Source: an uncultured Methanosarcinales archaeon
Lineage (GTDB): Archaea > Nanobdellota > Nanobdellia > Woesearchaeales > JAGWAF01
DNA length: 42,232 bases
Reading direction: 5' to 3'
NCBI GenBank assembly: GCA_964529655.1
Contig: CAZGZA010000002.1
Coordinates: 10,705 to 52,936, forward strand
Below, one piece after another: positions 1,769 to 40,826 of the stretch. The position numbers were made by a program, and so were the translations under genes. The notes below the pieces were generated by a model. It was not told the origin of the DNA. It saw only the letters and a list, made by a program, of their open reading frames with translations, and ran no database searches. Within the stretch, counting starts at the first letter, position 1. Each line of letters starts with the position of its first letter.

Positions 1769-1808
1769 CCAAAATAGACTAAACCGGAGCTATATTTAAA
1801 TTTTCTTA

Positions 1809-1890
1809 TTTTATAGTAACAGACATTAATTTCTATACATAAGCTACCGTTACTATATTCGGCGGGCATAACCTATTTGTATAATTGCTT
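1809..1890 (-). promoter_or_regulatory. 82-nt conserved element upstream of ftsZ, containing the inverted repeat TATAGTAAC..GTTACTATA
   Basis: About 89% identical by hand alignment to 28200-28281 upstream of smc. The inverted repeat is at 1812-1857. A TATA-like TTTAAATATA lies between the element and the ftsZ start. Confidence 0.55.
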
Positions 1891-2649: not shown

Positions 2650-2739
2650 CTAGACTTTTGCGTTTTTTGTTTTGATATCAAGCAAAAGGCTAGATACGTA
2701 AACTTTTGCCTATTTGTGTATAAAACGCAAAAGTTTACG
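2650..2739. repeat. Tandem pair of AACTTTTGC..GCAAAAGTT hairpins (family also at 32204-32343 and 40683-40772)
   Basis: CTAGACTTTTGC (2650-2661) pairs with GCAAAAGGCTAG (2682-2693). CGTAAACTTTTGC (2697-2709) pairs with GCAAAAGTTTACG (2727-2739), a perfect 13-bp stem. The loops are AT-rich and TATA-like. Confidence 0.6.
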
Positions 2740-6366: not shown

Positions 6367-6590
6367 ACCGGTTTGAAAGGAACCACATCCGCAAAGAGAT
6401 AGAAAAACTAAAACAGGCTAATACAGCCCTGACATCCGGGCAGGTTGTCTGGCTTTTTCTTGGAGTTTTGGCATCGCCAACCATAATCCTTCCCTATCTT
6501 TGTTATGGCTATATCAAAAAGTATAGCCGGCAAAAAAGCAAAAACCTCGCAACAATGGCCACACTAAGAGAAGAAATCACAAAATCCTAA
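6354..6590 (+). CDS. Hypothetical small membrane protein
   Basis: 78-aa ORF overlapping the alaS stop, with one predicted TM helix (VVWLFLGVLASPTIILPYLCYGY). No recognisable family. Confidence 0.3.
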   Translation: MVKMNRFERNHIRKEIEKLKQANTALTSGQVVWLFLGVLASPTIILPYLCYGYIKKYSRQKSKNLATMATLREEITKS

Positions 6591-6674
6591 AAATCCGCCT
6601 GCCAAAGGATTTTTAGGATGCGGAAAGACGAGCTAGTATCCACAAGCAAACAACATAGTTTTATGCTCGTCTTT
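6589..6674. repeat. Two-hairpin element (AAAAATCC..GGATTTTTAGGATGC + AAAGACGAGC..GCTCGTCTTT), copy 1
   Basis: A second copy at 18054-18137 has the same order and conserved stems. Confidence 0.6.
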
Positions 6675-6682
6675 TTAGCACC

Positions 6683-7435
6683 CTAAACAAACAGCCTGTC
6701 AACTAGATCATAGGTGTACAGCATGATTGCTTTTGTCTGGATTTTTGTCGGAATAAATGCCTCTGCCCTTTGATGGACAGAGAAAACCCTGACCTGATTT
6801 ACTAAATGCACCTGCTGCATTATCGCAGGGTCAATGTTAATGTTTTTTTCTTTTATTTTGGCAACTAAGCTGCCTAGGCCTATCCCGGGGCTTTTTTCAA
6901 GGGAATCCATTCCTGTTGCCTCATAATACTTTCGGTGCAATGCAATCTCCAGAATTCTGCCGCAGAGGATTACCGCAGACCTGTAACAGCCGCTGTTAAA
7001 ACATTTTTCAGCCTCGGAAAAATCAGCCAGCACACTATCCCTTATATCTAAAGGCAACTTTTTGGGAGAAATGGAATTCTGCTCCTGCTTTTCAATTTTC
7101 AGGCAGGAAGTCAGCTCTGCCAGTTTTTGTATTTTTTCAGCTATGCCCTCTGCAATGTTAAGCTGCTCAATAACCTCAATGATTGCAATTAGTGTCCCGC
7201 TGTCGCTATCCTTGTTGGTGTTGTTGTACTCCTCGGATTTATGCAGCTCCTTGGAGCAGGTTTTAACTTTTTCAAGTGCATTAAGAAACTTTTTTCGGAG
7301 GCAGTCCTCCATATTCTGCTGAAAATTGTAGACCTTGGGGTGTGTTAAACTGCTGATTTTGATATTTTTCTGTTCTAGAACATCAAAGGCGCTCTTAAGC
7401 TCAAGAACAGCTTTACTGAAATCATAGGTATTCAT
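6683..7435 (-). CDS. DUF4145-like domain protein (hypothetical)
   Basis: The C-terminal FSEAEKCF..GCYRSAVILCGRILEIALHRKY ... VHLVNQVRVFSVHQ resembles the DUF4145 pattern. I placed the start at MNTYDF (7435), which forms an ATGA overlap with the upstream VKOR gene. Confidence 0.45.
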   Translation of the reverse strand: MNTYDFSKAVLELKSAFDVLEQKNIKISSLTHPKVYNFQQNMEDCLRKKFLNALEKVKTCSKELHKSEEYNNTNKDSDSGTLIAIIEVIEQLNIAEGIAEKIQKLAELTSCLKIEKQEQNSISPKKLPLDIRDSVLADFSEAEKCFNSGCYRSAVILCGRILEIALHRKYYEATGMDSLEKSPGIGLGSLVAKIKEKNINIDPAIMQQVHLVNQVRVFSVHQRAEAFIPTKIQTKAIMLYTYDLVDRLFV

Positions 7436-7857
7436 TCTCTGTTGAGCCCAATAATAGAAAGCATGAATATAAATGTTATGCAAAGTGCAGAGACTGTGCA
7501 AATATAACAGATTGTTTTTAATTCAAAGAACTCCAGATAGTTAAGATAAACAGTAAAGCCGAAACCGACCAATGCCATTAGGAAGATATAAAAATTAAGG
7601 TCCTTAAACAGCTGGTTATTCTTGATTTTAACTATGCTTGTAAGAAACAGCGCAAGATATCCTCCAATGCCAATAACCGGAATCGGCATTCCAAAGATTT
7701 CAGAAAACCTGCTTTTGTTAACAGCATCGCAGCTGTTTCCAACCGCCGCTGCACAGATGCTTGCTGAATCGTAGTGTGCAAGAGTCATGTATATACTAAT
7801 AGCAAAACCAACTGCGGCAAAAAATGCTATTGCCTTGAAAACAGTATCTGTCTTCAT
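7432..7857 (-). CDS. Vitamin K epoxide reductase (VKOR) family membrane protein
   Basis: Four TM segments. The Cys pair C..C is followed by SRFSEIFGMPIPVIGIGGY, and CYIC sits in the last TM. I placed the start at MKTDTVF. Confidence 0.65.
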   Translation of the reverse strand: MKTDTVFKAIAFFAAVGFAISIYMTLAHYDSASICAAAVGNSCDAVNKSRFSEIFGMPIPVIGIGGYLALFLTSIVKIKNNQLFKDLNFYIFLMALVGFGFTVYLNYLEFFELKTICYICTVSALCITFIFMLSIIGLNRE

Positions 7858-7915
7858 ATAATATCTCCTATTGTATCTTTTGACAGTGCGCATAAATCTT
7901 TAAAATTATATAAAC

Positions 7916-8818
7916 TTATCGGGAGCTGAGATTTATAATGGACTGGCTGAGATGTATCAGCGCTAAAATAATTGCGGAATGCGCTTTTATACGTCTGCCT
8001 AAGGGTATGGTTGCCGGGGTTTCCACGACAATCACGCATTCAGCAGCCGGCCCTGTATGAATTTTGTGGCGGATAATAATTTTTTTTGCAGAAAGAAGCT
8101 CATCAATAGAGCCATCGCTTGACATTGCTGCAATGCCGTTGCAGACAGGCTCATTAAATCTGGTTTTGCCAGACATTCTAATTGGAATATTATTGCTTAT
8201 TAGGATTTTAATGATTTTTGCAGAAACCTTACCCATTAAAGTTGGGTTAGTGCCGGAACAATAGATATAACCCTTATCAGCTATATCATCCTCGTGCAGG
8301 TCTATTACCATTAGAGGCGGGTATTCAGTGGCAAGCTCCAAAACCTTTGAGGTAATAGCTTTTGCTTCAGGGCATGAGAATGCACTGGCTCTTTGTTTAG
8401 AGGTGTCTTTCAAATCCGGCAAATAATACTCAGAATCCCCAACGCTTCTGTTGTTTCCGTTAGGGAGCCATGTCTTCTGATTTGGGTATCTATATCTTTT
8501 ATAGTATCCATGCGGATTGCAAAGAGGGAGCAAAACAACCGGCATAATAATGCCGAGTTTTTCAATTGTTTCAGCATTTATGGCAATAGCATTCGGGCCA
8601 GCTGGCTCATTTCCGTGTATGCCTGAAATAATCCACATCGCTCTCCCGCGATTAGGCGAGGCTAAACTTATTATTGGAAAACTGATTTTTTTCCCTCTCC
8701 ATTTTTCTGTGGAAGAATAAATTTCTCTGTAATCCCATCTATAACCCTCTTTTAGATTTTGCAGGAGAGGATAAATCTCGGCAATCTCAAGTTGGTTATC
8801 AAAAGTCTTTAATTTCAT
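7916..8818 (-). CDS. M14-like zinc carboxypeptidase / succinylglutamate desuccinylase-aspartoacylase family protein
   Basis: SGIHGNEPAG (HxxE zinc site) and DLHED. Confidence 0.6.
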   Translation of the reverse strand: MKLKTFDNQLEIAEIYPLLQNLKEGYRWDYREIYSSTEKWRGKKISFPIISLASPNRGRAMWIISGIHGNEPAGPNAIAINAETIEKLGIIMPVVLLPLCNPHGYYKRYRYPNQKTWLPNGNNRSVGDSEYYLPDLKDTSKQRASAFSCPEAKAITSKVLELATEYPPLMVIDLHEDDIADKGYIYCSGTNPTLMGKVSAKIIKILISNNIPIRMSGKTRFNEPVCNGIAAMSSDGSIDELLSAKKIIIRHKIHTGPAAECVIVVETPATIPLGRRIKAHSAIILALIHLSQSIINLSSR

Positions 8819-8900
8819 AATAGGCCTGTCTCAGTTTTATTCACTGATTAAAATATAATAAAAGACATAAATAATTATACGAATAGTTATGTCTTTTAAA

Positions 8901-8945
8901 TATAGTAACTGACATTTTGTCTAAATGTTAAGGTCAGTTACTATA
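8901..8945. promoter_or_regulatory. Third copy of the TATAGTAAC-N-GTTACTATA palindrome
   Basis: TATAGTAACTGAC (8901-8913) pairs with GTCAGTTACTATA (8933-8945). The arm sequence and ~45-bp span match those at 1812-1857 and 28203-28248. Confidence 0.45.
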
Positions 8946-11497: not shown

Positions 11498-11779
11498 CTG
11501 CCTCCCTACTGTAAAATCCGAGATTTTACAGTCCCTCAAATTTGTTCCAAATTTGAGTTGTCTTGGCTTTGCCAAGATTAAATTTTCTCCCCCTCGCTTG
11601 CGCAGGGGGAGAAAATACCTCAAAATCAGAGATTTTGCGGTACTTCAAATTTAGCCAGAACCCTTTCTTGATTTTGAGGTACTGCAAATTTAGCGAAAAG
11701 CTAAATTTGAAGTATAACCCAACTTTGTTCTGAACAAAGTTGAGCAGGGAGGCAGCAGATGAATAATAACAGCAGCAAA
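11498..11779 (-). repeat. 282-bp multi-hairpin element, copy 1 (perfect inverted copy of 18152-18433)
   Basis: Its reverse complement matches 18152-18433 at both ends on direct comparison. The two track ORFs crossing the copies share an identical 85-residue stretch. Confidence 0.9.
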
Positions 11780-14695: not shown

Positions 14696-14718
14696 AACAA
14701 GCAGTTATTTGCGTGCAT

Positions 14719-14793
14719 AGCGAGGTAGGGCAGACAGGAGTGCCCGGGGGGCTCATAACCCCCAGGTCGGTGGTTCAAATCCACCCCTCGCTA
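14719..14793 (+). tRNA. Initiator tRNA-Met (CAT)
   Basis: Hand-folded cloverleaf: acceptor AGCGAGG/CCTCGCT with A1:U72, anticodon arm GGGGG-CTCATAA-CCCCC (a G:C run typical of initiators), T arm GGTGG-TTCAAAT-CCACC. Confidence 0.9.
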
Positions 14794-14933
14794 TTTTTAT
14801 GTTTGTAGTTTGTGGGACTTCATGAAGTGAATGTCCCATTCTTTTTGATCAAACTTTTCGTTAGTTCATGAGCGCGCTCATGAACTAAGCCACGCATGGC
14901 CGTAAAAGTTTGGTGAATATCCACCTCTCGTTA
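14794..14933 (+). repeat. tRNA-iMet trailer cassette ending in a degenerate copy of the tRNA 3' end
   Basis: CCACCTCTCGTTA (14921-14933) matches the tRNA 3' end CCACCCCTCGCTA (14781-14793) at 11/13. It is preceded by AAAAGTTTGGTGAATAT. It contains the module 14814-14860, shared with the tRNA-Pro trailer, and a 28-nt perfect palindrome at 14861-14888. Confidence 0.75.
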
Positions 14934-18151: not shown

Positions 18152-18433
18152 TTTGCTGCTGTTATTATTCATCTGCTGCCTCCCTGCTCAACTTTGTTCA
18201 GAACAAAGTTGGGTTATACTTCAAATTTAGCTTTTCGCTAAATTTGCAGTACCTCAAAATCAAGAAAGGGTTCTGGCTAAATTTGAAGTACCGCAAAATC
18301 TCTGATTTTGAGGTATTTTCTCCCCCTGCGCAAGCGAGGGGGAGAAAATTTAATCTTGGCAAAGCCAAGACAACTCAAATTTGGAACAAATTTGAGGGAC
18401 TGTAAAATCTCGGATTTTACAGTAGGGAGGCAG
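18152..18433 (+). repeat. 282-bp multi-hairpin element, copy 2
   Basis: Perfect inverted copy of 11498-11779. The terminal pairing is GCTGCCTCCCT / AGGGAGGCAGC, with about seven internal stem-loops. Confidence 0.9.
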
Positions 18434-20210: not shown

Positions 20211-20245
20211 AGATTAATAAGGCAAAAAGGGTATTTATATTTTGG

Positions 20246-20278
20246 GATTTTAGTCCAAAAAAATGCGCTGGCCGGGAT
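20246..20278 (-). repeat. Duplicate of the tRNA-Gly(TCC) 3' end plus its trailer
   Basis: GATTTTAGTCCAAAAAAATGCGCTGGCCGGGAT (20246-20278) matches 20333-20364 with a 1-nt indel. A CCAGATTTTT..AAAAATCTGG hairpin lies between the two copies. Confidence 0.85.
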
Positions 20279-20349
20279 ACCCACCAGATTTTTAAAAAAA
20301 TCTGGTAAAAACATTGGACATAAAATCTTTGAGATTTTAGTCCAAAAAA

Positions 20350-20420
20350 TGCGCTGGCCGGGATTCGAACCCGGATAATCAGCTTGGAAGGCTGAAGTCA
20401 TGCCATTAGACCACCAGCGC
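20350..20420 (-). tRNA. tRNA-Gly (TCC)
   Basis: Hand fold: GCGCTGG..CCAGCGC acceptor, anticodon arm TCAGC-CTTCCAA-GCTGA, T arm CCGGG-TTCGAAT-CCCGG. Confidence 0.9.
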
Positions 20421-20606
20421 ATTTGTTATGATAGCAGAAGACATAAAAAAATATACAATTAGCAGGTCTTCTGCTATTAGCCAAAGGCATACTAATTGTA
20501 TAAACAATTATGTCTTTGGCTATAAAATGGCGGGTTGTATTATAAAGTTTTTGCTCTTTTTAAAAAGCAAATCTTTAAATTTCTCTTGCGCTTTGTCTCT
20601 TAATAC

Positions 20607-20680
20607 GGGGCTGTGGTCTAGCTTGGTATGATACACGCATGGGGTGCGTGTGATCGGGAGTTCAAATCTCCCCAGCCTCA
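20607..20680 (+). tRNA. tRNA-Pro (GGG)
   Basis: Acceptor GGGGCTG/CAGCCTC, anticodon arm ACGCA-TGGGGTG-TGCGT, T arm GGGAG-TTCAAAT-CTCCC. Confidence 0.85.
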
Positions 20681-20929
20681 TTTGGAATTAAAGCTGTAGC
20701 GCAGGTTTAATTCCAGCTTTTTACCAGATTTTTACCGAAAAATCTGGTGGTAATCTCCCCAGCCCCAGTTATTTGTTTGTAGTGGGTAATTCTTGGGACT
20801 TCACGAAGTGAATGTCCCATTCTTTTTGATCAAACTTTTCGCCAAAACACTCAAAAATCCATTAAGATTTTTGGTGTCCTAAAAATTCCCGGAATTTTTA
20901 TGAGTTTGGTGAATATCTCCCCAGCCTCA
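20681..20929 (+). repeat. Two tandem tRNA-Pro trailer cassettes, each ending in a copy of the tRNA 3' end
   Basis: ATCTCCCCAGCCCCA (20753-20767, 1 mismatch) and ATCTCCCCAGCCTCA (20915-20929, exact) both match the tRNA at 20666-20680. Confidence 0.85.
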
Positions 20930-21802: not shown

Positions 21803-22450
21803 ATGCCTAACACAATTCTTGTTATTTGCGCGCATAACGATGATGGGATTATTGGCGCCGGTGGCACGCTCGCGAGATACGCAGAGGAGGGCAAAAGGAT
21901 TAGGACAATTGTTTTCTCTTACGGTGAACTAATCAAGTTTCATCTCCAAAAAGAGCTTGCAATAAAAATGCGGGTTAAGGAAGCGCTTGATTGTGACAGG
22001 ATTCTTGGAGGCAAGGGTATACTTCATCTGGGCATTAGCGAAAACAATTTTGACGAAGAAATTAAAAAAAGACATATCAAGGAAAAGCTTGCTGGCATTA
22101 TCAAAAAAGAGAATCCGGAAAAGATATTCACACATTCGGTCAATGATCCGCATCGTGACCATAAAGCAGTTTACCGGCTTGTAAAGGAAATGAAGAGCGA
22201 ACATTTAATGAAATGCGAGGTTTACTCTTTTGAGATATGGAATATTATTAACCTGTTTGAGAGGGATCAGCCAAAGCTTATTGTTGATATTACCTCTACT
22301 TTCAGAAAAAAAAGCAGGGGGATTATGGCACATAAAAGCCAAAACCTGCTGATTGTTAAGCCATTTCTTATCAAGGCCTTCTTCAAGGATTTAATAAATG
22401 GCTTCAATAATAGCTGCTGGTTTGCTGAGGTATTTAACAAATTCCAATGA
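21803..22450 (+). CDS. PIG-L family deacetylase (LmbE-like)
   Basis: VICAHNDDGIIGAGGT and HSVNDPHRDH. Confidence 0.85.
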   Translation: MPNTILVICAHNDDGIIGAGGTLARYAEEGKRIRTIVFSYGELIKFHLQKELAIKMRVKEALDCDRILGGKGILHLGISENNFDEEIKKRHIKEKLAGIIKKENPEKIFTHSVNDPHRDHKAVYRLVKEMKSEHLMKCEVYSFEIWNIINLFERDQPKLIVDITSTFRKKSRGIMAHKSQNLLIVKPFLIKAFFKDLINGFNNSCWFAEVFNKFQ

Positions 22451-23526
22451 AGATTGCGATTGTTTCAGACAGGTATTATCCAAGTATGGACGGAATTGTG
22501 AGGTTTCTGGAGGCTGTTATTCCCGGGCTGGAAAAGAGGATGGAGCTGCAGCTCTTAGTCCCGGGCTATAGCAAGAGCCAAAAAAGTATCTCAGCTAAGA
22601 CAACAGTTGTTCCAGCGTTTAAAGCTGAATTTCTTGGCCTGCCATATATGGTTATTCCTAAGAAGATTAAATACTTAAAGGAGGCAATTAAAAACAGCGA
22701 TAAGGTCTGGGTTCAGACAATGGGACTTTTTGGAATGGCAGCATTTTATTATGCTAGAAAATACAAAAAGCCTGTTTATGTTTTTGTCCATAGTATAGAA
22801 TGGGAGCTGTTGTTGCATTCTCTAAAGGCGCCGAGGATTGTTAAGCTAATTCTCGCCAGGATTATAAAATGTGTAATTTTGCATTTTTACAAAAAGGCAG
22901 AGCTGCTGATGGTGCCATCAAAAGATATGCAGCATTTGTTTCCGACAATGAAAACAGGGGTTATACCTCTAGGGGTTGACCGCAATATATTCCGGCCTTT
23001 AGCCGGAAAAAGCCATGGCTTTACAGTAGGGTATTGCGGCAGGCTTTCAGAAGACAAGAATCTTATGGTTCTTAAGCAGGCCTTTAAGATGCTGCATGAA
23101 AAAGTGCCGAACAGCAGCCTTTTGCTGGTTGGTGATGGCCCGCTTAAGGAAAAGCTTAAAGGCATTGGAATTACAATTACAGGTTTTGTTTATGATGTTG
23201 TTGGATATCTAAATAAGATGGATGTTTTTGTTTTGCCCTCACTTACAGAAACAACATCACTGGCAACGCTTGAGGCCATGGTATGCGGGCTTCCTGTGAT
23301 TGTTACTAAATCCTCACCTGTCCTGCGCAGGATAATTCAGGATGGCAAAAATGGCTTTTTCTTCCATAAGCTTAATGCAAATGAGCTTGAGGAGCGACTG
23401 ATGCTGTTGTACAGCAAACCAAAGCTAAGAAAATCAATGGGTAGACTAAACCAAAAGATTATAGCAAAAAGGTTTAGCTGGAGCACTGCGATTGAGAGGA
23501 TTGCGGGAATTCTGAACAAGATTTAA
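22447..23526 (+). CDS. Glycosyltransferase family 4 (GT-B fold)
   Basis: The C-terminal EX7E-type region is PSLTETTSLATLEAMVCGLPVI. It overlaps the PIG-L stop by 4 nt. Confidence 0.85.
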   Translation: MKIAIVSDRYYPSMDGIVRFLEAVIPGLEKRMELQLLVPGYSKSQKSISAKTTVVPAFKAEFLGLPYMVIPKKIKYLKEAIKNSDKVWVQTMGLFGMAAFYYARKYKKPVYVFVHSIEWELLLHSLKAPRIVKLILARIIKCVILHFYKKAELLMVPSKDMQHLFPTMKTGVIPLGVDRNIFRPLAGKSHGFTVGYCGRLSEDKNLMVLKQAFKMLHEKVPNSSLLLVGDGPLKEKLKGIGITITGFVYDVVGYLNKMDVFVLPSLTETTSLATLEAMVCGLPVIVTKSSPVLRRIIQDGKNGFFFHKLNANELEERLMLLYSKPKLRKSMGRLNQKIIAKRFSWSTAIERIAGILNKI

Positions 23527-24545
23527 ATACTAGCATTAGAGGGAGTTGACAAGAATAACGCAGACTTGCTGATTAATGCTATAATAGTAAGCAAGTCTGC
23601 GGAATGTACAAGAATGACAAACAATCCATTAATAAATATTGATAAAATCAAGAGCAGGATTTATACTATTAGAAGCCTACAAGTAATGCTCGATGCAGAT
23701 CTTGCAGAGCTTTATAATGTAGAGACAAAAACATTAAATCAAGCAGTTAAAAGAAACAGTGAAAGATTTCCAAAAGAGTTTATGTTTCAAATAGCTCAAG
23801 AAGAGTTTGATAATTTGAAGTCACAATTTGTGGCCTCAGGTGCAAAAGATTTAAGGTCACAAAATGTTACCTTAAAAAACAGAAGAGGGCATCACCGGAA
23901 GTATCTTCCATATGTTTTTACAGAGCAGGGAGTTGCAATGCTTTCAGGAGTCTTAAAAAGCAACACTGCGGTAAAGATAAGCATACAAATAATGAGCGCA
24001 TTTGTCGCAATGAGGCAGTTTATCTATTCAAATGCCCAAATATTTTATAGGTTAAATGTTGTAGAAAAAAAGCAAATAGAATATGACAATAAATTTGATG
24101 AAATATTCGATGCCATACAAAGCAAAGATATAGTCCCTGAGAAAGGAATATTTTTTGATGGGCAGATATTTGATTCATACCAATTTGTTTCTGGCTTAAT
24201 TAGAAGCGCTAATAAGTCCATTATCCTTATTGATAATTATATAGATGATTCTGTATTGACTCTATTCAGCAAGAGAAATAAAAATGTGCAAGCCACTATA
24301 TTCACTAAAGAGATTTCCAAGCAATTAGCTCTTGATTTAACCAAATACAATTCACAATACCCATCAATCGAAGTAAAAGAGTTTAAACAGTCGCATGATA
24401 GGTTTCTTATAATAGATAATAAGGATGTTTACCATTTTGGGGCATCATTAAAAGATTTAGGCAAAAAGTGGTTTGCATTCTCAAAATTTGACAGGGAAGC
24501 AGTTAAGCTGCTGGATAAGCTGGGGTTGAAATGAAAGAGGGGTAT
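23527..24545 (+). mobile_element. Candidate inserted cassette carrying an ORF6N-domain gene, bounded by duplicated glycosyltransferase 3' ends
   Basis: It is flanked by the direct repeats 23411-23526 and 24546-24658. No integrase or transposase is present. Confidence 0.45.
23614..24534 (+). CDS. ORF6N (KilA-N-like) DNA-binding domain protein with a C-terminal PLD-like degenerate HKD region
   Basis: IRSLQVMLDADLAELYNVETKTLNQAVKRNSERFPKEFMFQ is the ORF6N signature. The C-terminal HDRFLIIDNKDVYHFGASLKDLG resembles an HxK-x4-D...GS motif with K replaced. I placed the start at MTNNPL. Confidence 0.7.
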   Translation: MTNNPLINIDKIKSRIYTIRSLQVMLDADLAELYNVETKTLNQAVKRNSERFPKEFMFQIAQEEFDNLKSQFVASGAKDLRSQNVTLKNRRGHHRKYLPYVFTEQGVAMLSGVLKSNTAVKISIQIMSAFVAMRQFIYSNAQIFYRLNVVEKKQIEYDNKFDEIFDAIQSKDIVPEKGIFFDGQIFDSYQFVSGLIRSANKSIILIDNYIDDSVLTLFSKRNKNVQATIFTKEISKQLALDLTKYNSQYPSIEVKEFKQSHDRFLIIDNKDVYHFGASLKDLGKKWFAFSKFDREAVKLLDKLGLK

Positions 24546-24658
24546 ACAGCAAACCCAAGCTAAGAAAATCAATGGCTAGCTTAAACCAAAGGATTATAGC
24601 AAAAAGGTTCGGCTGGAGCACTGCGATTGATAGTATTGAGAGAATTCTGAAAGATTAG
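24546..24658 (+). pseudogene. Detached duplicate of the glycosyltransferase C-terminal coding end
   Basis: It translates in frame to YSKPKLRKSMASLNQRIIAKRFGWSTAIDSIERILKD*, compared with YSKPKLRKSMGRLNQKIIAKRFSWSTAIERIAGILNKI* at 23411-23526. Confidence 0.7.
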
Positions 24659-27600
24659 CTTATCTTCAAGCACACAACATTGCTCATGCTGTGCTCATCC
24701 ATGCTCACGCCATACAGGTTGTTTGCCTCTGCAATAAGCGCGTCGTTATGGGAGATAATAATATACTGAGCTCTGGAGGAGTATGCGCCTACCAGTTTGG
24801 AAAATTTCTGGGAGTTTATCTTGTCAAGTGAGGCATCCACTTCATCAAAAACATAAAAGCTTGCTGGTTCATGTTCTTGCATGGCAAAAAGGAATGCGAG
24901 CGCCGTCATTGTCTTCTCGCCTCCGCTTAAGCTTCTTATATCCAGGAATTTGTCTCCGGATTGCTTTACCATGATTTTTGTCCCGCCCTCAAATATGTTT
25001 TCAGGCGTTTCAAGCACTAGCGACGCCTCGCCTTTGGTTGAGAGTTCACTGAAGCATTTCTGGAAATGGCCATTAATCTTGTTGAATGTAGTCATGAACA
25101 GCTCTTTTTTCTTTTCCTCTATTACGGCCATTAAATTTGTTACAGACTGCTTTTCATTTTCAAGCTGTTCCCTTTTTTCAAGCAAAGATTTGTATTCACG
25201 TTCAACTGTTTCATAAATTTCCAGAGCGCGCATATTTACTGAGCCTATTTGTTCCCTTAATTTCTCAAATTCCTCTATCTCTTTTTTAAGCTGTTCCTCT
25301 GTTTTTTGGGTATCCAGAGCTATGCCTCGGTATTGCTCAAACGCTGCCTCAAGGCCGGCCAGCTCTGCCTTTATCTTTGCATTTTCAAGCGAGGCAGTAT
25401 TAAGGCTGTATTCAACCCGCCTTGCCTCCTCCTCTTTTTTGTAAGTTTCATTTTCTTTTCCGGCTATCATGTCATTTAGTTCGTTGCGTTGGTTATACAA
25501 ACTTTTAAAATTGGCAAAAAACTTCTGCTGTTCCTGCTCCTTTCCTTTTAGGTTTATCTCCTGGTTTAGAATAAGCTCCTCCAATGCTTTTATCTCCTCA
25601 GAAAACAGGATTTCCTCTTTTTCATGGTCTTTTGTTATTTTTGCAATGTTCTGCCGGTCTCGTCCGATGACCTCTCCTATCTGCAGGTTGATTCCGCCTA
25701 TTTTTGCCTCAAGCTTGATAATCTCCTCTATGATTTCAGTTTTTTTCTGCTCAAATGCGTTGAGCTCAGCCAGCAGAGTCGGATTTCTTAGCTCGTTTAT
25801 CTGGTTTCTAAGCTGTTGTTTTTTAATTTTTGCATCCGCCAACTCTCTATTGGTTTCGGTAATTATGCCAGTCAATTCATCAAAAGCTTTATCCCGCTCT
25901 TTTTGTTTGAGGAGCAGCTCCTCCTTATAGGCAAGCGATGCATCTAAGTCAGCCTCCTCAAGGTGAAGCCCCTTTTCAGTTCTGATTATTTCCCCCTCTG
26001 TTACTGCCTTTAGCTCCCGCTGCAGGCTTATCTTCTTCTCATTATCCTCTTTTTTTGCCTCCAGCTCACGGAGATTATCTTCCATGTCATTAACGCTGTC
26101 GCGTATTCGCTCAATATCAGTCTCAAGCTCCTTTTCCCTGAAACCTATGCCCCTCTTTCTTTCCCTGTAGCCACCAACCATGGCCCCGCTAACATCACAA
26201 AGGTCCCCGTCAAGTGTCGCCATTCGTATCCTTCCAACCCCTATCTTTCTGGCAGAGTCAATATTGTCTACAATAATAGTATCGCCAAAAATATAGTCAA
26301 ACACATTTTTGAACATAGGCTTATATTTTATAAGGCCGCCAGCAAGGCCATGGACACCGTTCATCTTTAGGATGCTCTCTGTCTCCATTGGCTTTGCGGA
26401 CTTAATCTTATTTAGTGGAAAAAAATGTACTATGCCGAGTTTGTCGTGTTTAAGGTATTTTATGCATTTGGCTGCTGTGGCATCATCCTTGACAACAACC
26501 CCCTTAAGCCTTGGCCCGGCAGCTATCTCCAGGGCAAGGCTGTATTTCGAGCTGACTGTTCCAAGCTCTGAAACAGCGCCGTATATTTCGCCAAGGCTTT
26601 CCCTATTTTTTAGGACGCTCTTGACTGCTATATTGCCTGAGATGCTTTCTTTTAGTGAGATATTTTTTGCCTCAAGCTTGGCCAATTCGGTTTTGTCGCG
26701 CAGGAGGTTTTTTCGCAACTCTGCAAGCTGTGCGGCAAGCGTTGAATCCATATTCAGGAGGGCATTAAGCTCAAGCGTTGCCTTTTTGAATATATCCTGT
26801 TTTTGTTTAAGCTGTTTTAATTCTGCCTCGTGTTCCCTCTCTACTTCAGCAACCTTTTTAATTCTGTCCTGGATTGTCTGAACCTGAAACTCCAACTTGT
26901 CCTTTTCCCTTAAAAGCCCCTGCTGTTTTTCACGCAGGCTGTTTATTGCCCTCTGCCTTTCCTCTATGAACAGGTCTTTTTCCTCTATTTCTTTTTCTAT
27001 CTTTTCAGCCTCCTCCCCTAACTTATGCCTTTTCTTGAAATTGAAAATATTTTTTTCCAGCTCCCGCTGCCCAAAAGCCAGGGTTTTTTTCTCGTCTTCA
27101 AGCGTTTCTATTTCAGTAGTAAAATTCTTTGTTTTTTCATCCAATTCAGCGATATTCTTCCTGAACTGGTCCTTTCTTGCCCCAATTCTTGCAATCTCAT
27201 TTTTGCAGGAGCTTATGCGGTTTTTTCCGGTGCCAATATCAACCTTAAGTTTTTCTATGTCTTTTTGCAGCTGCCGCTGCTCTCTGTCACCCTTTTCCTC
27301 AACGACTTTGGTGATCTCCTTTATTTTGTCGCGCTTTTCTTTTATTGCATCCCTGATTGTGCTGATTTCAGCTTTTACTTTTTCCAGTTCGTCATTGCGG
27401 GCGCTTATTTGGTGTTCATAATCCTCTTTTACAGCAATTCTTTTGTCAATATCCCGCTTAATGTACGAAGCCTTGTTTACGGCGATTTGATTGTTCAGCT
27501 CCCTGTATTTTAAGGCCTGGTCCCTGTCCTTTTTTAGTTCGCGCATGTAGCTCTTTCTTTCCTTAAGTATTATGTCTGCCTCGCCAAGCTTCTGCCCGAC

Positions 27601-28152
27601 TTTCTCAAGCTCCCTCAGTGTTTTTTCTTTTTTGTCCTCGTAAATTGAAATGCCCGAGATTTCCTCGATAGTCTGCCTTCTTTCAAGCGGCGACATCTCA
27701 ACAGAGTGTATGACATCTCCCTGGAGGATAATATTATACCCATCAGGATTAATTTTCGCCATAGAAAGCAGGTCAAGTATCTGTTGCCTTGTCCTAGTTT
27801 TATCGTTTATTTTGTAGATGCTCAGGCCATTCTGTCTTACAATTCGGGTTACTTTTACAGAGTCCTCCTCGGTTGGGAATATCCTTGTTGAATTGTCAAA
27901 ATATATGCTTACCTCGCCGTGGCTGGCTGGCTTTTTTGTTTTTCCTCCGTTGTAAATCAGGTTTGCGCTTTTTTCAGCCCTGAGGGATTTTGATGAGGAT
28001 TTTCCAAGGACGAAGCAGACAGCATCTATAATATTGCTTTTTCCACTGCCATTAGGTCCAAGAACTACATTAAATTTGTCTCCAAACAGCAGTTCAGTCC
28101 TCTTTCCAAAGGACTTAAAGCCAGTCATTACAATTCTATTAATTCTAGTCAT
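24655..28152 (-). CDS. smc: Chromosome segregation protein SMC
   Basis: 1165 aa. It has the N-terminal Walker A GPNGSGKSN, long coiled coils, a hinge, and the C-terminal LSGGEKTMTALAF and FDEVDASLD. Confidence 0.95.
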   Translation of the reverse strand: MTRINRIVMTGFKSFGKRTELLFGDKFNVVLGPNGSGKSNIIDAVCFVLGKSSSKSLRAEKSANLIYNGGKTKKPASHGEVSIYFDNSTRIFPTEEDSVKVTRIVRQNGLSIYKINDKTRTRQQILDLLSMAKINPDGYNIILQGDVIHSVEMSPLERRQTIEEISGISIYEDKKEKTLRELEKVGQKLGEADIILKERKSYMRELKKDRDQALKYRELNNQIAVNKASYIKRDIDKRIAVKEDYEHQISARNDELEKVKAEISTIRDAIKEKRDKIKEITKVVEEKGDREQRQLQKDIEKLKVDIGTGKNRISSCKNEIARIGARKDQFRKNIAELDEKTKNFTTEIETLEDEKKTLAFGQRELEKNIFNFKKRHKLGEEAEKIEKEIEEKDLFIEERQRAINSLREKQQGLLREKDKLEFQVQTIQDRIKKVAEVEREHEAELKQLKQKQDIFKKATLELNALLNMDSTLAAQLAELRKNLLRDKTELAKLEAKNISLKESISGNIAVKSVLKNRESLGEIYGAVSELGTVSSKYSLALEIAAGPRLKGVVVKDDATAAKCIKYLKHDKLGIVHFFPLNKIKSAKPMETESILKMNGVHGLAGGLIKYKPMFKNVFDYIFGDTIIVDNIDSARKIGVGRIRMATLDGDLCDVSGAMVGGYRERKRGIGFREKELETDIERIRDSVNDMEDNLRELEAKKEDNEKKISLQRELKAVTEGEIIRTEKGLHLEEADLDASLAYKEELLLKQKERDKAFDELTGIITETNRELADAKIKKQQLRNQINELRNPTLLAELNAFEQKKTEIIEEIIKLEAKIGGINLQIGEVIGRDRQNIAKITKDHEKEEILFSEEIKALEELILNQEINLKGKEQEQQKFFANFKSLYNQRNELNDMIAGKENETYKKEEEARRVEYSLNTASLENAKIKAELAGLEAAFEQYRGIALDTQKTEEQLKKEIEEFEKLREQIGSVNMRALEIYETVEREYKSLLEKREQLENEKQSVTNLMAVIEEKKKELFMTTFNKINGHFQKCFSELSTKGEASLVLETPENIFEGGTKIMVKQSGDKFLDIRSLSGGEKTMTALAFLFAMQEHEPASFYVFDEVDASLDKINSQKFSKLVGAYSSRAQYIIISHNDALIAEANNLYGVSMDEHSMSNVVCLKIS

Positions 28153-28199
28153 TTCCCCCGTATGTTAATGGGCAGATTGCTTTTATAAAATTATTGTTG

Positions 28200-28281
28200 T
28201 TTTATAGTAACAGACGTTAATTTTTATGTATAATCTACTGTTACTATATTCGGCAGGCATAATCTATTTGTATAATTACTT
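28200..28281 (-). promoter_or_regulatory. 82-nt conserved element upstream of smc (paralog of 1809-1890)
   Basis: The inverted repeat is TATAGTAACAGAC..CTGTTACTATA at 28203-28248. A TATA-like TTTTATAAAA lies between it and the smc ATG. Confidence 0.55.
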
Positions 28282-28389
28282 CAAAAAGCCGAAAGCTCCG
28301 CACTTTAGTACTGAGATGAAAGCTTTTTGAAGTTTAAAAATGCGAACGTTGAAGCCACGCACTTTAGTGTACAGATAGTTCGCATTTTT
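28279..28389. other. Two tandem stem-loops with a shared loop motif CGCACTTTAGT
   Basis: CTTCAAAAAGC/GCTTTTTGAAG spans 28279-28332 and AAAAATGCGAAC/GTTCGCATTTTT spans 28336-28389. Both ~30-nt loops contain CGCACTTTAGT. Confidence 0.5.
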
Positions 28390-31295: not shown

Positions 31296-31439
31296 TGGGC
31301 CCATCCAGATACCTACCAGATTTTTTAGAAAATGCACAAAAATCTAAAATATTTTTGGCATCCTGGAAATCCGCAGATTTCCATGAATCTGGTAAAAATA
31401 TGCGACATAAAATCCTTCTGGGATTTTAGTCGCAAAAAC
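31296..31439 (-). repeat. tRNA-Val trailer cassette ending in a copy of the tRNA 3' end
   Basis: TGGGCCCATCCAGAT (31296-31310) matches TGGGCCCAACCGGAT (31440-31454) at 13/15. The hairpin GACATAAAATCC..GGATTTTAGTC is at 31404-31431. Confidence 0.75.
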
Positions 31440-31511
31440 TGGGCCCAACCGGATTTGAACCGGTGACCTTCGCCTTGTAAGGGCGACGTTCTGCCGCTGA
31501 ACTATGAGCCC
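31440..31511 (-). tRNA. tRNA-Val (TAC)
   Basis: Sense GGGCTCA..TGGGCCC acceptor, anticodon arm TCGCC-CTTACAA-GGCGA, T arm ACCGG-TTCAAAT-CCGGT. Confidence 0.9.
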
Positions 31512-31546
31512 AATGAAGTTTTAACGTGCTTGATTCTCCCAAAAAA

Positions 31547-31704
31547 TCTGGGCCCACGGGGATTTTCACAAGATTTTTACCAAAGCACAAAAATCCCAGA
31601 GGATTTTTGGCTCCCAAAAAACTTTTGGTTTTTTGTGGAAATCTTGTAAAAAGTGGGCGACATAAAATCCCTTCAGGATTTTAGTCCCTCTAAACTTTGA
31701 AATC
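31547..31704 (-). repeat. tRNA-Ile trailer cassette ending in a copy of the tRNA 3' end
   Basis: TCTGGGCCCACGGGGATTT at 31547-31565 is identical (19/19) to 31703-31721. The hairpin is at 31659-31686. Confidence 0.85.
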
Positions 31705-31824
31705 TGGGCCCACGGGGATTTGAACCCCAGACCTTCGGCTTTCCTAGCGCCGAAAGCGGCCGTATAAGACCGACGCTCTAACTGCCCGAAAGTTTTAGCT
31801 TCCTCCAGGCTGAGCTATGGGCCC
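31705..31824 (-). tRNA. tRNA-Ile (TAT) with two introns (D-loop and canonical 37/38)
   Basis: Removing 31782-31804 (23 nt) and 31741-31762 (22 nt) gives a 75-nt cloverleaf, GGGCCCATAGCTCAGCCTGGTTAGAGCGTCGGTCTTATAAGCCGAAGGTCTGGGGTTCAAATCCCCGTGGGCCCA. The anticodon loop is CTTATAA. Confidence 0.7.
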
Positions 31825-31868
31825 GATTGTTATACCTAAATTGTTTATACTTTTTAAATATTGTTAAG

Positions 31869-31977
31869 TGCAACAGCCGGGATTTTCACCAAACTTTTTT
31901 TGACAAAAGGTTTGATCAAAAGCAGCGACATAAAATCCCTACAGGATTTTAGTCGCAAACACGACCAACACATTCTA
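31869..31977 (-). repeat. tRNA-Gly(GCC) trailer cassette ending in a copy of the tRNA 3' end
   Basis: TGCAACAGCCGGGATTT (31869-31885) matches TGCGACAGCCGGGATTT (31978-31994) at 16/17. The hairpin is at 31927-31954. Confidence 0.8.
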
Positions 31978-40467: not shown

Positions 40468-40619
40468 ATTGAAAAGTTCAGTTATCGCGCCTGCTCTGTC
40501 CAAGCTAATGCTTGGATAATTTCTTTCTCCCCGCACAGGTGAGGGGAGAAAGAAATTAGTCTGCAAGACCAAAGCAGGCTGGACAGGTATAACCAAGAGC
40601 AATACAACCGCTTTTCAAT
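40468..40619. other. Hairpin-rich intergenic segment closed by ATTGAAAAG/CTTTTCAAT (candidate structured RNA or repeat)
   Basis: It contains CCAAGC-TAAT-GCTTGG and a perfect 15-bp stem, AATTTCTTTCTCCCC (40518-40532) / GGGGAGAAAGAAATT (40543-40557). The latter is similar to the TCTCCCCC hairpin inside the 282-bp repeat. Confidence 0.35.
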
Positions 40620-40682: not shown

Positions 40683-40772
40683 TGAACTTTTGCGTTTTGT
40701 ATATAAAACTAGGCAAAAGTTCATGTAGTTAACTTTTGCAGGATATAATAAATTTAAAGTACAAAAGTTAAC
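40683..40772. repeat. Tandem pair of AACTTTTG..CAAAAGTT hairpins
   Basis: TGAACTTTTGC (40683-40693) pairs with GCAAAAGTTCA (40713-40723). GTTAACTTTTG (40728-40738) pairs with CAAAAGTTAAC (40762-40772). Both are perfect 11-bp stems. Confidence 0.6.
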
Positions 40773-40826
40773 TTCCGATAAATTTATAAACCTCTTCAAA
40801 AAGTAATAATAACTGTGGCATGACCA

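What the first reader, a model, noticed from the sequence alone, without database searches (positions are those of the whole stretch)
23411..24658. An ORF6N-domain gene is inserted at the glycosyltransferase 3' end and brings or duplicates ~115 bp of the target coding end
The last ~116 bp of the GT4 gene (23411-23526) recur at 24546-24658. By hand alignment they are ~85-90% identical, stay in frame and end in a stop codon. The 1.0 kb between them holds one gene. It has an ORF6N/KilA-N-like DNA-binding N-terminus and a C-terminal HDRFLIID...GASLKDLG region resembling a degenerate PLD/HKD motif. ORF6N domains are typical of phage, plasmid and bacterial mobile DNA. A 12-bp perfect palindrome, CGCAGACTTGCT/AGCAAGTCTGCG (23559-23601), brackets an AT-rich TATA-like stretch just upstream, like an autoregulatory operator. 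The layout looks like an integration that preserves the host gene by supplying a replacement 3' end. But there is no recombinase, so the mobility mechanism is unexplained.
Basis: partly seen in the sequence, partly recalled or inferred. Interest (0 to 1): 0.7.

Follow-up and report, generated by a model that had tools for sequence, protein, structure and literature searches.

The report
Defence gene inserted with duplicated gene end
A single foreign anti-phage-type gene was inserted exactly where two archaeal housekeeping genes meet, and about 110 bases of one gene's end were duplicated so both stayed intact; this rarely noticed insertion mode was previously described only for bacterial restriction-modification genes.

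Summary
Bases 23410-23516 (the functional 3' end of the GT4 gene) recur at 24545-24651 with 90% identity. The 1.03 kb between them holds one intact 306-aa gene.

Three related contigs have the uninterrupted GT/SMC junction, with stop codons overlapping by 4 nt. The downstream copy keeps exactly that geometry. It is therefore the displaced original end, now decaying (pN/pS 0.77, against 0.23 between orthologues).

The inserted gene has low GC. It is a full-length member of the PADLOC candidate defence family PDC-S05: an ORF6N DNA-binding domain, a coiled coil and a PLD-fold domain with an HxR variant motif.

No recombinase or terminal inverted repeats are present. The functional copy looks resident rather than foreign.

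The layout meets the criteria of "insertion with long target duplication", described for bacterial restriction-modification genes (Furuta et al. 2010). Its mechanism is still unknown. The same signature brackets PDC-S05 genes in at least 10 other loci with unrelated targets.

The palindrome exists, but similar promoter-embracing palindromes occur throughout this genome, so it is not specifically an ORF6N operator.

Verdict: a new member of a known, obscure kind, and moderately interesting.

The parts
22447..23526 (+). GT4-family glycosyltransferase gene (359 aa). It is intact. Its last 3 codons and stop (AAC AAG ATT TAA) are new sequence at the left edge of the insert.
   Evidence: Pfam Glyco_trans_1_4 E=1e-31 and Glycos_transf_1 E=5e-30. 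Orthologues P0122-P0124 are 356-357 aa.
23410..23516 (+). Upstream copy of the repeat. It is the functional 3' end of the GT gene.
   Evidence: It keeps orthologue-like residues (G, K, S, A) that the other copy has lost.
23517..24544 (.). Inserted DNA, about 1,028 nt, absent from relatives. GC is 32-33% against 40-44% in the flanking genes.
   Evidence: Empty sites in L022, L023 and L024. GC dip. No terminal inverted repeats. Nucleotide similarity to the closest homologues is confined to the ORF.
23559..23601 (.). Perfect 12-bp inverted repeat embracing a TATA-like loop (TATAATA about 27 nt upstream of the ATG). Probably the archaeal promoter of a leaderless transcript.
   Evidence: The promoter reading is inference. 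The same architecture recurs at 2697, 8859, 8901, 20431 and 40727 in the window.
23614..24534 (+). PDC-S05 family gene (306 aa). ORF6N domain aa 15-113 (nt 23656-23952). Long helix / coiled coil aa 117-171. PLD-fold domain about aa 176-300 (nt 24139-24513), with invariant H261-x-R263-x4-D268 (nt 24394-24417).
   Evidence: Pfam. PADLOC PDLC04869 E=6e-123 over the full length. Invariant columns. AlphaFold model. Foldseek matches to TrmBL2, NucT, Zucchini, PLD3 and Tdp1.
24545..24658 (+). Downstream copy. It is the displaced original GT 3' end (a relic) and has no start codon of its own. Its TAG (24656-24658) overlaps the SMC stop (24655-24657, minus strand) exactly as in relatives. It contains the A5 run near 24601-24605, which is T5 on the SMC strand.
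   Evidence: pN/pS between the two copies is 0.77. The role as SMC 3' UTR or terminator is inference.
24655..28152 (-). SMC gene (1165 aa), convergent with GT. It is intact and its junction with the relic is ancestral.
   Evidence: The SMC orthologue in L023 is also 1165 aa with the same 4-nt overlap.

Best explanation
The organism is a DPANN (Woesearchaeota-like) archaeon. After it diverged from its nearest sampled relatives, about 1.03 kb of AT-rich foreign DNA was inserted at the point where the convergent GT4 and SMC genes overlap by 4 nt. The DNA carries one gene with its own promoter.

The insertion event duplicated the resident last ~107-112 nt of GT. This is an 'insertion with long target duplication'. 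The copy left of the insert continues to serve as the GT 3' end. The copy right of the insert keeps the ancestral junction with SMC, probably including SMC's oligo-T terminator. It is no longer translated and decays neutrally.

The cargo is a PDC-S05-type candidate anti-phage protein. It most plausibly acts as a DNA-binding (ORF6N) dimer with a PLD-fold phosphodiesterase or nuclease-like effector domain.

Shown: the insertion, the empty sites, the duplication, the relaxed constraint on the relic, the family and fold of the cargo, and the recurrence of the same signature around other family members.

Inferred: the duplication arose from repair of a break with long staggered ends (fill-in on both sides of the incoming DNA). 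A DNA-breaking activity of the cargo may favour such events, as proposed for restriction-modification genes. The gene acts in defence.
For: Repeat and ORFs.

Empty sites with the same 4-nt stop overlap in three relatives, and the downstream flank of the relic aligns with L022.

Relic decay: pN/pS is 0.77 between the copies and 0.23 for either copy against the orthologue. The upstream copy retains orthologue residues.

Foreign composition.

No mobility gene. The insert holds one gene, and 20 large ORFs of the window are housekeeping genes. No terminal inverted repeats.

Cargo identity. A RhuM-type PDC-S05 protected E. coli against T7, T5 and T4 (bioRxiv 10.1101/2024.09.26.614923).

Mobility of the gene. 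More than 100 homologues are 67-80% identical across Woesearchaeota, Nanoarchaeota, Micrarchaeota and bacteria. The closest ones lie in unrelated contexts, with similarity limited to the ORF.

Recurrence. Unrelated, locus-specific direct repeats of 26-363 nt, spanning neighbouring gene starts or stops, bracket PDC-S05 genes in L036, L041, L049, L050, L057, L062, L078, L079, L092, L093 and L105. The rate is 8/52 against 2/121 control genes, Fisher p=0.0012, after excluding one confounded control locus. ALDH locus: the number of gene-end copies equals the number of cargo genes plus one (3 in L105, 2 in L191, 1 in L192, L193 and L195).

Precedent: PMC2853133.
Against: The molecular mechanism of long target duplication is unknown, so the 'staggered break' step is conjecture.

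At the ALDH site, all five gene-end copies in L105 and L191 (carrying three different cargos) end exactly at the stop codon. This looks more site-specific or homology-driven than random staggered breaks.

The polarisation of differences rests on one outgroup that is only 76% identical, with near-saturated synonymous sites (pS 0.7-0.8). Counts are small (12 differences).

With the unfiltered control (4/59, all four in the PDC-S05 array locus L066) the enrichment is not significant (p=0.22).

Most PDC-S05 loci (about 85%) show no flanking repeat.

The defence function of this ORF6N-type member is untested. The HKD motif is non-canonical (K->R, N->L).
Confidence: 0.68

Rival explanations
1. Homologous (Campbell-type, 'ends-in') integration. 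A small circular or linear DNA already carrying the cassette plus a GT 3' end arose by loop-out from a related genome that had the duplication. It recombined with the resident GT end. The repeat would then be the homology segment, and the de novo duplication happened elsewhere.
For: Direct repeats of 107 nt can loop out and re-integrate. Within-genome copies share lineage-specific states at the ALDH site: GCG three times in L105 against GCC twice in L191. Different cargos and arrays occupy the same pad. L055 and L066 show mosaic recombining PDC-S05 arrays.
Against: It only moves the origin of the first duplication to another genome. No second carrier of this cassette at a GT end was found. The upstream copy shows almost no non-resident changes.
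Confidence: 0.2
2. Site-specific integration by a tyrosine or serine recombinase. The element carried an attP that mimics the GT 3' end, as in the first reader's reading. The integrase acted in trans, or it was later deleted and only the cargo remained.
For: The repeat runs to within about 7 nt of the target gene's stop codon. At the ALDH site it ends exactly at the stop codon in every copy, as is typical of att sites in gene 3' ends. The same site is reused by different cargos. Tandem arrays occur.
Against: There is no recombinase in the insert or among the 20 large ORFs of the 42-kb window that were scanned. The insert is essentially one ORF with variable, untidy boundaries across loci (-24 to +70 nt from the stop). 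Repeats are locus-specific and range from 26 to 363 nt. The upstream, supposedly element-borne, copy is the more orthologue-like one. The longest identical run between the copies is only 19 nt.
Confidence: 0.12
3. Self-mobilising single-gene element. The ORF6N-PLD protein itself nicks or transesterifies DNA and drives insertion of its own gene with long staggered cuts.
For: PLD-fold enzymes work through a covalent phosphohistidine intermediate (established knowledge). H261, R263 and D268 are invariant in 41 sequences. The repeat signature is enriched around this family. A nuclease-linked idea has been proposed for restriction-modification genes (PMC2853133).
Against: There are no conserved element ends. 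No multi-copy near-identical insertions were seen: the best homologue is 80% identical, and the clusters examined sit in one context each. Non-PDC-S05 cargos show the same signature (L105 insert A, the L191 229-aa gene). The motif is non-canonical, and the fold also matches non-catalytic PLD-like domains (TrmBL2, MITD1, FAM83).
Confidence: 0.08
4. Two-step origin. A spontaneous local tandem duplication of the GT end came first, creating a neutral 'safe harbour' between the copies. Foreign DNA was captured there later.
For: It would explain reuse of the same pad by different cargos. It would also explain why insert boundaries are untidy.
Against: No relative, and no ALDH-locus relative, shows a duplicated gene end without cargo. 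The number of copies equals the number of cargos plus one in 5 of 5 loci. It requires two rare events.
Confidence: 0.07

Closest known systems
Insertion with long target duplication of restriction-modification genes (Nobusato et al. 2000, Gene 259:99; Furuta, Abe & Kobayashi 2010, NAR 38:2428, PMC2853133)
   Same: Nuclease-type defence cargo. Long (30-420 bp), variable, locus-unique direct repeats. One copy at the empty site of relatives. No integrase or transposase. Repeats often span a translation start or stop so that neighbours survive. Low-GC insert. A single-gene case (mcrA) is known.
   Different: The cargo is not a restriction-modification gene. It is a PDC-S05 ORF6N/PLD-fold gene. The host is a DPANN archaeon, and no archaeal case passed their screen. 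The target is a 4-nt overlap of two convergent essential-type genes. In a related case the same pad carries different cargos in sister genomes.
PDC-S05 / RhuM / 'ORF6N domain-containing protein' candidate defence genes found by 'guilt-by-embedding' (PADLOC; bioRxiv 10.1101/2024.01.29.577857)
   Same: Full-length HMM match (E=6e-123). Single-gene system. In other loci the gene sits inside type I restriction-modification or Schlafen-like defence operons (L078, L093, L050).
   Different: In the window it is embedded between housekeeping genes, not in a defence system. How embedded genes get in was left open in that work. Junction duplication is seen here.
Integrative elements that target the 3' ends of tRNA or protein genes and restore them with an element-borne copy (att duplication)
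   Same: Direct repeats made of the target gene's 3' end flank the insert. The host gene stays intact. The displaced end lies on the far side.
   Different: There is no recombinase. The insert is a single ORF with no defined ends. The functional copy looks resident rather than foreign. Repeat length and target differ at every locus.
TrmBL2 / TrmB-type archaeal DNA-binding proteins
   Same: Best whole-chain structural match (Foldseek E=1.7e-8). Both have an N-terminal DNA-binding domain, a long coiled-coil helix and a C-terminal PLD-like domain.
   Different: The N-terminal domain is ORF6N (KilA-N-like), not a TrmB winged helix. Sequence identity is 12-16%. The family keeps an invariant H-x-R…D motif, which suggests an active or ligand-binding site. 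There is no sequence-level PDB hit.
Single-HKD PLD-family nucleases (NucT/Nuc, Zucchini, BfiI; DrmC, MkoB and NsnC in defence systems)
   Same: The C-terminal domain has the same fold (NucT E=2e-6, TM 0.56). There are weak HMM matches to NsnC, DrmC and MkoB. A His-containing motif sits at the equivalent place.
   Different: The motif is H-D-R-x4-D-x7-G-A-S-L rather than HxK-x4-D-x6-GSxN. There is no Pfam PLDc hit at E<=0.1. Activity is untested.

Membership tests
Insertion with long target duplication (Furuta et al. 2010 criteria) | Inserted segment flanked by direct repeats longer than 30 bp | tested here: met
   107 nt at 89.7% identity, 23410-23516 / 24545-24651.
Insertion with long target duplication (Furuta et al. 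2010 criteria) | Related genome has an empty site with a single copy of the repeated sequence | tested here: met
   L022, L023 and L024 have GT directly convergent with SMC, one GT end and no insert.
Insertion with long target duplication (Furuta et al. 2010 criteria) | No integrase, transposase or other mobility gene in the insert | tested here: met
   The insert holds one gene, ORF6N/PDC-S05. 20 large window ORFs are housekeeping genes.
Insertion with long target duplication (Furuta et al. 2010 criteria) | Repeat is unique to the locus, not a dispersed repeat; length varies between events | tested here: met
   Only 2 copies in the window. Other PDC-S05 loci have unrelated repeats of 26-363 nt.
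Insertion with long target duplication (Furuta et al. 2010 criteria) | Cargo is a restriction-modification system | tested here: not met
   The cargo is PDC-S05. There is no methyltransferase or restriction-enzyme domain.
PDC-S05 (PADLOC candidate defence system) | Full-length match to a PDC-S05 HMM | tested here: met
   PDLC04869 E=6.2e-123, protein aa 6-303 on profile 11-300 of 306.
PDC-S05 (PADLOC candidate defence system) | Confers phage resistance | not testable with these tools
   Only a RhuM-type member has been tested in E. coli.
ORF6N domain (Pfam PF10543) | Score above the Pfam gathering threshold | tested here: met
   117 bits against a cut-off of 27.8, covering profile positions 2-86 of 86.
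PLD / HKD phosphodiesterase superfamily | PLD fold | tested here: met
   AlphaFold pLDDT is 84-91 over aa 190-280. Foldseek matches NucT, Zucchini, PLD3, F13 and Tdp1 at E=2e-6 to 1e-3.
PLD / HKD phosphodiesterase superfamily | Canonical HxK(x)4D(x)6G(S/G)xN motif | tested here: not met
   The sequence is H261-D-R263-FLII-D268-NKDVYHF-G276-A-S-L. K is replaced by R, N by L, and the spacer is 7 residues. H, R and D are invariant in 41 homologues.
PLD / HKD phosphodiesterase superfamily | Sequence-profile match (Pfam PLDc / PLDc_2) | tested here: not met
   No Pfam PLD hit at E<=0.1. Only weak matches were found: NsnC 6.6e-6, DrmC 5e-3, MkoB 8e-3, VPA1262_N 4e-7. No PDB sequence hit.
Integrase-mediated integrative element at a gene 3' end | Element encodes a tyrosine or serine recombinase | tested here: not met
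Integrase-mediated integrative element at a gene 3' end | The gene-restoring copy is element-borne (foreign) and the displaced copy is native | tested here: inconclusive
   The displaced copy is in the native position. However, the restoring copy is the more orthologue-like one, with about 2 changes against about 7. Relic decay confounds the test.
Transposon / insertion sequence | Terminal inverted repeats and a short target duplication of fixed length | tested here: not met
   No inverted repeat pairs the ends 23517 and 24544. The duplication is 107 nt, and its length varies among loci.
Free-standing homing endonuclease gene | Insertion without target duplication, and a known homing-endonuclease nuclease family | tested here: not met
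   A duplication is present. No LAGLIDADG, GIY-YIG, HNH or similar domain was found.

The most novel reading that the evidence does not exclude
PDC-S05 proteins (ORF6N DNA-binding domain plus a PLD-fold catalytic domain with an invariant His) may promote insertion of their own gene. They would make widely staggered breaks at gene junctions. This would be an autonomous single-gene mobile element with no canonical transposase or integrase. It would also explain mechanistically how defence genes become 'embedded' in operons and in compact DPANN genomes.
Probability: 0.08. Interest if true: 0.85.

Novelty: new member of a known kind. Interest (0 to 1): 0.55.

Why it matters
1. It gives a clean archaeal example, supported by empty sites, of 'insertion with long target duplication'. 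This mode of gene acquisition was described 25 years ago for bacterial restriction-modification genes. In the literature searched here it is little cited, and no mechanism has been established.

2. It extends that mode to a non-restriction, single-gene candidate defence family (PDC-S05). Across about 10 further loci, the same junction-duplicating signature accompanies this family in two settings. One is inside type I restriction-modification and Schlafen-like operons. The other is between housekeeping genes. This offers a concrete, testable route for the unexplained 'embedding' of defence genes.

3. It shows how a gene-dense genome with overlapping convergent genes can accept foreign DNA without losing either neighbour.

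If the nuclease-like cargo proves to promote its own insertion, that would be a new kind of mobile element.

Tried and rejected
- An exact look-up of the window's GT protein found nothing.
- The genome-contig scan with GT returned only distant bacterial GTs at 24-31% identity. The relatives were reached through the protein search instead.
- PDB sequence searches with the protein and with a 41-sequence profile gave no hits.
- IMG/VR viral contigs hold only half-length relatives (ORF6N-only or PLD-like-only, 62% identity or less). A viral vehicle is therefore not supported. Phage records gave the same result.
- Plasmid hits (Legionella, Bacteroidales, 55% identity or less) gave no informative context.
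- L001 and L011, the first two contexts examined, have no flanking repeats.
- L055 was rejected as evidence for duplication. It holds three tandem mosaic PDC-S05 paralogues that share their own 3' ends.
- L075 was rejected because it is flanked by Ser_hydrolase paralogues.
- All four positives in the first control set came from L066. That locus is itself a PDC-S05 cassette array, so it was set aside and a second control set was added.
- Conserved cassette termini, microhomology at junctions and a conserved upstream palindrome were looked for and not found.
- An assembly artefact was rejected. The copies differ at 11 positions and each is continuous with unique sequence.
Full report
**1. The observation**

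- A 107-nt ungapped direct repeat joins 23410-23516 to 24545-24651 at 89.7% identity. It is the strongest direct repeat in the 42-kb window. A 28-mer from it occurs twice, against none in 100 shuffles.
- The upstream copy forms the last codons of a GT4 glycosyltransferase gene, 22447-23526 (Pfam E=1e-31).
- The downstream copy is in the same frame, has no start codon of its own, and ends in TAG at 24656-24658.
- One ORF lies between the copies, 23614-24534, 306 aa.
- The 12-bp perfect palindrome at 23559-23601 is exact. Its 19-nt loop contains TATAATA about 27 nt upstream of the ATG.

**2. It is a derived insertion, and the downstream copy is the original gene end**

The three closest GT orthologues lie on contigs L022, L024 and L023 (76%, 57% and 55% identical). 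All three have the order PIG-L deacetylase, GT, then a convergent SMC gene. The GT and SMC genes overlap by 4 nt and nothing lies between them.

In the window the downstream copy ends at 24658 and SMC at 24655, which is the same 4-nt geometry. The sequence beyond it aligns base-for-base with L022.

The upstream copy departs from the repeat after GAATTCTGAA. It ends one codon later (…NKI*) than every orthologue.

So about 1,028 nt (23517-24544) were inserted after the split from the L022 lineage.

The inserted stretch has 32-33% GC, against 40-44% in the neighbouring genes.

**3. Which copy is under selection**

The two copies differ at 12 codon positions, 3 synonymous and 9 non-synonymous. That gives pN/pS of 0.77. 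Either copy compared with the L022 orthologue gives 0.23.

Using L022 to polarise the differences, about seven changes fall on the downstream copy. They include G->A, K->R, S->G and A->E at positions conserved in orthologues. About two fall on the upstream copy.

The downstream copy is therefore a decaying relic rather than part of a separately expressed gene.

The upstream copy looks like resident sequence that was duplicated. It does not look like a foreign replacement end brought in by an element.

Caveat: there is only one usable outgroup, its synonymous sites are near saturation, and the counts are small.

One inference follows. The relic contains the A5 run near 24601-24605, which reads as T5 on the SMC strand. 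Keeping about 110 nt may therefore have preserved SMC's 3' untranslated region and oligo-T terminator. In the ancestor that terminator lay inside the GT coding end.

**4. The cargo**

- The protein has an ORF6N domain at aa 15-113 (PF10543, E=4.7e-34).
- Over its whole length it matches the PADLOC candidate defence family PDC-S05 (PDLC04869, E=6e-123).
- The C-terminal half gives only weak profile matches to PLD-type defence nucleases: NsnC, DrmC and MkoB, and VPA1262_N. There is no Pfam PLDc hit.
- An AlphaFold model built from a 41-sequence alignment has mean pLDDT 74, rising to 84-91 over aa 190-280.
- Foldseek matches the whole chain to TrmBL2, which has a DNA-binding domain, a coiled coil and a PLD-like domain. 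It matches the C-terminal domain to NucT, Zucchini, PLD3, vaccinia F13 and Tdp1.
- The motif is H261-D-R263-x4-D268-x7-G-A-S-L. H, R and D are invariant in the alignment, but the canonical Lys and Asn are replaced.

The 'degenerate HKD' reading is therefore supported at the level of fold. Catalysis remains open, because non-catalytic PLD-like domains (TrmBL2, MITD1, FAM83) match equally well.

PDC-S05 was defined by 'guilt-by-embedding' in other defence systems (bioRxiv 10.1101/2024.01.29.577857). A RhuM-type member reduced plating of T7 and T5 by about 1000-fold and of T4 by about 10-fold in E. coli (bioRxiv 10.1101/2024.09.26.614923). The same C-terminal domain occurs in annotated RhuM proteins.

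**5. The gene is horizontally mobile, but it has no element of its own**

- More than 8000 database proteins match. The top 120 are 66-80% identical and come from Woesearchaeota, Nanoarchaeota, Micrarchaeota and some bacteria. The host GT, by contrast, falls to 42% identity or less after three hits.
- The closest homologues (78-80% identical) sit in unrelated contexts. Nucleotide similarity stops at the ORF boundaries, so the 97-nt upstream region is unique.
- The insert has no recombinase and no terminal inverted repeats. Twenty large ORFs of the window are ordinary housekeeping genes such as FtsZ, AlaRS, Nre, RNase HII and AdSS.
- No second copy of the cassette or of the repeat exists in the window.
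- No near-identical copies at other sites were seen. This argues against IS-like activity.

**6. The same signature recurs around this family**

I examined 80 metagenomic loci encoding close homologues.

Direct repeats tightly bracket the PDC-S05 gene in L036 (187 nt), L041 (61), L049 (26), L050 (363, with hsdM), L057 (44), L062 (43), L078 (37), L079 (62), L092 (240), L093 (34) and L105 (68).

- The repeats are unrelated to one another.
- Each is a copy of the local gene junction, either the 3' end of the upstream gene or the ribosome-binding site, promoter and 5' end of the downstream gene.
- Targets include hsdS, hsdM, Schlafen/AlbA_2 genes, recQ and an aldehyde dehydrogenase.
- Insert boundaries are untidy. 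They lie from 24 nt before to 70 nt after the PDC-S05 stop codon, and 12-270 nt upstream of its start. They show no shared termini or obvious microhomology.

With a 500-nt flank test, 8 of 52 PDC-S05 genes have such repeats. Among neighbouring control genes the figure is 4 of 59. All four are in L066, which is itself an array of PDC-S05 paralogues and cassettes. Among related single-domain genes on viral contigs it is 2 of 66. Setting L066 aside gives 8/52 against 2/121, p=0.0012. Without that exclusion, p=0.22. The enrichment is suggestive rather than proven.

A second set of comparators came from the aldehyde dehydrogenase locus.

- L105 has two cargos (a 144-aa ORF and PDC-S05) and three copies of the gene's last 64-68 nt.
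- Its sister L191 (94% identical enzyme) has a different 229-aa cargo and two copies.
- Three more distant relatives without cargo have one copy.
- All copies end exactly at the stop codon.

**7. Closest known phenomenon**

Furuta, Abe and Kobayashi (NAR 2010, PMC2853133) extended Nobusato et al. (Gene 2000). They describe 'insertion with long target duplication'.

- Restriction-modification genes of types I-IV, including a lone mcrA and orphan methyltransferases, are flanked by long (30-420 bp), variable, locus-unique direct repeats.
- Relatives have an empty site carrying one copy.
- No mobility gene is present.
- The repeats often span a start or stop codon.

They suggest that DNA breakage by the cargo may be involved and propose an amplify-and-release life cycle. 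The mechanism was not established, and no archaeal case passed their screen.

The window meets every structural criterion. It differs in cargo (PDC-S05, not restriction-modification), in host (a DPANN archaeon) and in target (a 4-nt overlap of convergent genes).

The papers I could search on PDC-S05 and on embedding do not address how embedded genes are inserted. A text search for the term returned 32 papers. From the 25 titles and abstracts listed, none appeared to extend it to archaea or to non-restriction defence genes.

**8. Mechanism: what is shown and what is inferred**

Shown:
- Insertion of foreign DNA.
- Duplication of about 107-112 nt of resident sequence.
- Survival of both neighbouring genes.
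- Neutral decay of the displaced copy.

Inferred:
- The duplication arose in the insertion event itself.
- The most economical picture is a break with long staggered ends, with the incoming DNA joined and both overhangs filled in.

Rivals that the data do not exclude:
- Homologous 'ends-in' integration of a looped-out cassette from a genome that already had the duplication.
- A recombinase acting in trans on an att site formed by the gene end. The stop-codon-exact boundaries and the reuse of the ALDH pad by different cargos speak for one of these two.
- A duplication that came first. This is disfavoured, because the number of copies equals the number of cargos plus one in 5 of 5 loci.

Self-mobilisation by the PLD-fold protein is the most novel reading. 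Several observations count against it: unrelated cargos share the signature, conserved ends are lacking, and multi-copy insertions are absent.

**9. The palindrome**

The palindrome is real but not special to this gene.

- The window has 13 perfect inverted repeats of at least 12 bp with 3-30-nt loops, against 0.03 expected. All are intergenic.
- At least five others (2697, 8859, 8901, 20431, 40727) likewise embrace an AT-rich TATA-like loop in promoter regions.
- Two other Woesearchaeota contigs show a similar density.
- It most likely marks the promoter of a leaderless transcript, in the style of the host lineage.
- An autoregulatory operator remains possible, but nothing here supports it. 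Only 16 of 78 homologous loci have any 8-bp inverted repeat upstream, and all of those are unrelated.

**10. Verdict**

The locus is a horizontally acquired PDC-S05 candidate defence gene. It was inserted at the GT/SMC junction with a long target duplication.

This is a new member of a known but little-studied kind. It is the first archaeal, non-restriction example I could document.

The added observation is that the signature recurs across the family. Interest is moderate (0.55). It would be high only if the cargo proves to drive its own insertion.

Noticed in passing
window 2697-2739, 8859-8898, 8901-8945, 20431-20477, 23559-23601, 28336-28389, 40727-40773: Unique 12-13-bp perfect inverted repeats embrace AT-rich, TATA-like loops in promoter regions. 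The window holds 13 perfect palindromes of at least 12 bp, against 0.03 expected from shuffles. Three share an AACTTTTGC / GCAAAAGTT core: 2697, 40727 and L023:4206-4251. This looks like a lineage-wide promoter or terminator architecture.
   Followed up: partly
window 1798-1890 and 28188-28281: A 94-nt sequence, 87% identical, lies just upstream of both ftsZ (614-1768, minus strand) and smc (24655-28152, minus strand). It may be a shared regulatory element for cell-division and chromosome-segregation genes.
   Followed up: no
window 14813-14860 and 20794-20841: A 48-nt repeat at 98% identity. One copy lies just downstream of tRNA-Met (14718-14794). The other lies about 110 nt downstream of tRNA-Pro (20607-20680). 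Shorter related repeats occur near the tRNA genes at 20241-20364 and 31386-31959.
   Followed up: no
window 11582-11616, 18315-18349, 40517-40558: G/C-rich hairpins of related sequence (ATTTTCTCCCCCT…AGGGGGAGAAAAT). Two copies are in opposite orientation with similar flanks, resembling a small dispersed palindromic element.
   Followed up: no
L105:3075-4992 and L191:6343-7201: The 3' end of an aldehyde dehydrogenase gene acts as a reused landing pad. There are 3 copies with 2 cargos in L105, 2 copies with a different 229-aa cargo in L191, and 1 copy in three cargo-free relatives. Every copy ends exactly at the stop codon. Cargo stop codons lie 0-40 nt before the next copy.
   Followed up: partly
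L055:2173-4882 and L066:1-8885: Tandem arrays of PDC-S05 paralogues with mosaic blocks of identity. In L055, three genes share identical 5' or 3' segments. In L066, other small cassettes are separated by repeated 45-200-nt junction sequences. This suggests recombination-driven diversification.
   Followed up: partly
L093:397-1562: Between hsdM and a GIY-YIG gene lies a 75-aa RhuM-type PDC-S05 N-terminal fragment, followed by a full ORF6N-type PDC-S05 gene. The last 9 codons of that gene are a copy of the hsdM 3' end, so a gene fusion was created by the junction duplication.
   Followed up: partly
L050:1941-5364: A 363-nt non-coding repeat at 94% identity brackets a two-gene unit of hsdM plus PDC-S05. 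The nature of the repeated sequence (RNA or promoter) was not examined.
   Followed up: no
window 6683-8818: A DUF4145-containing ORF (6683-7501) and two ORFs without Pfam matches (7432-7893, 7916-8818) are bounded by palindromes at 6584-6619 and 8859-8945. This may be another accessory or defence-type insertion among housekeeping genes.
   Followed up: no
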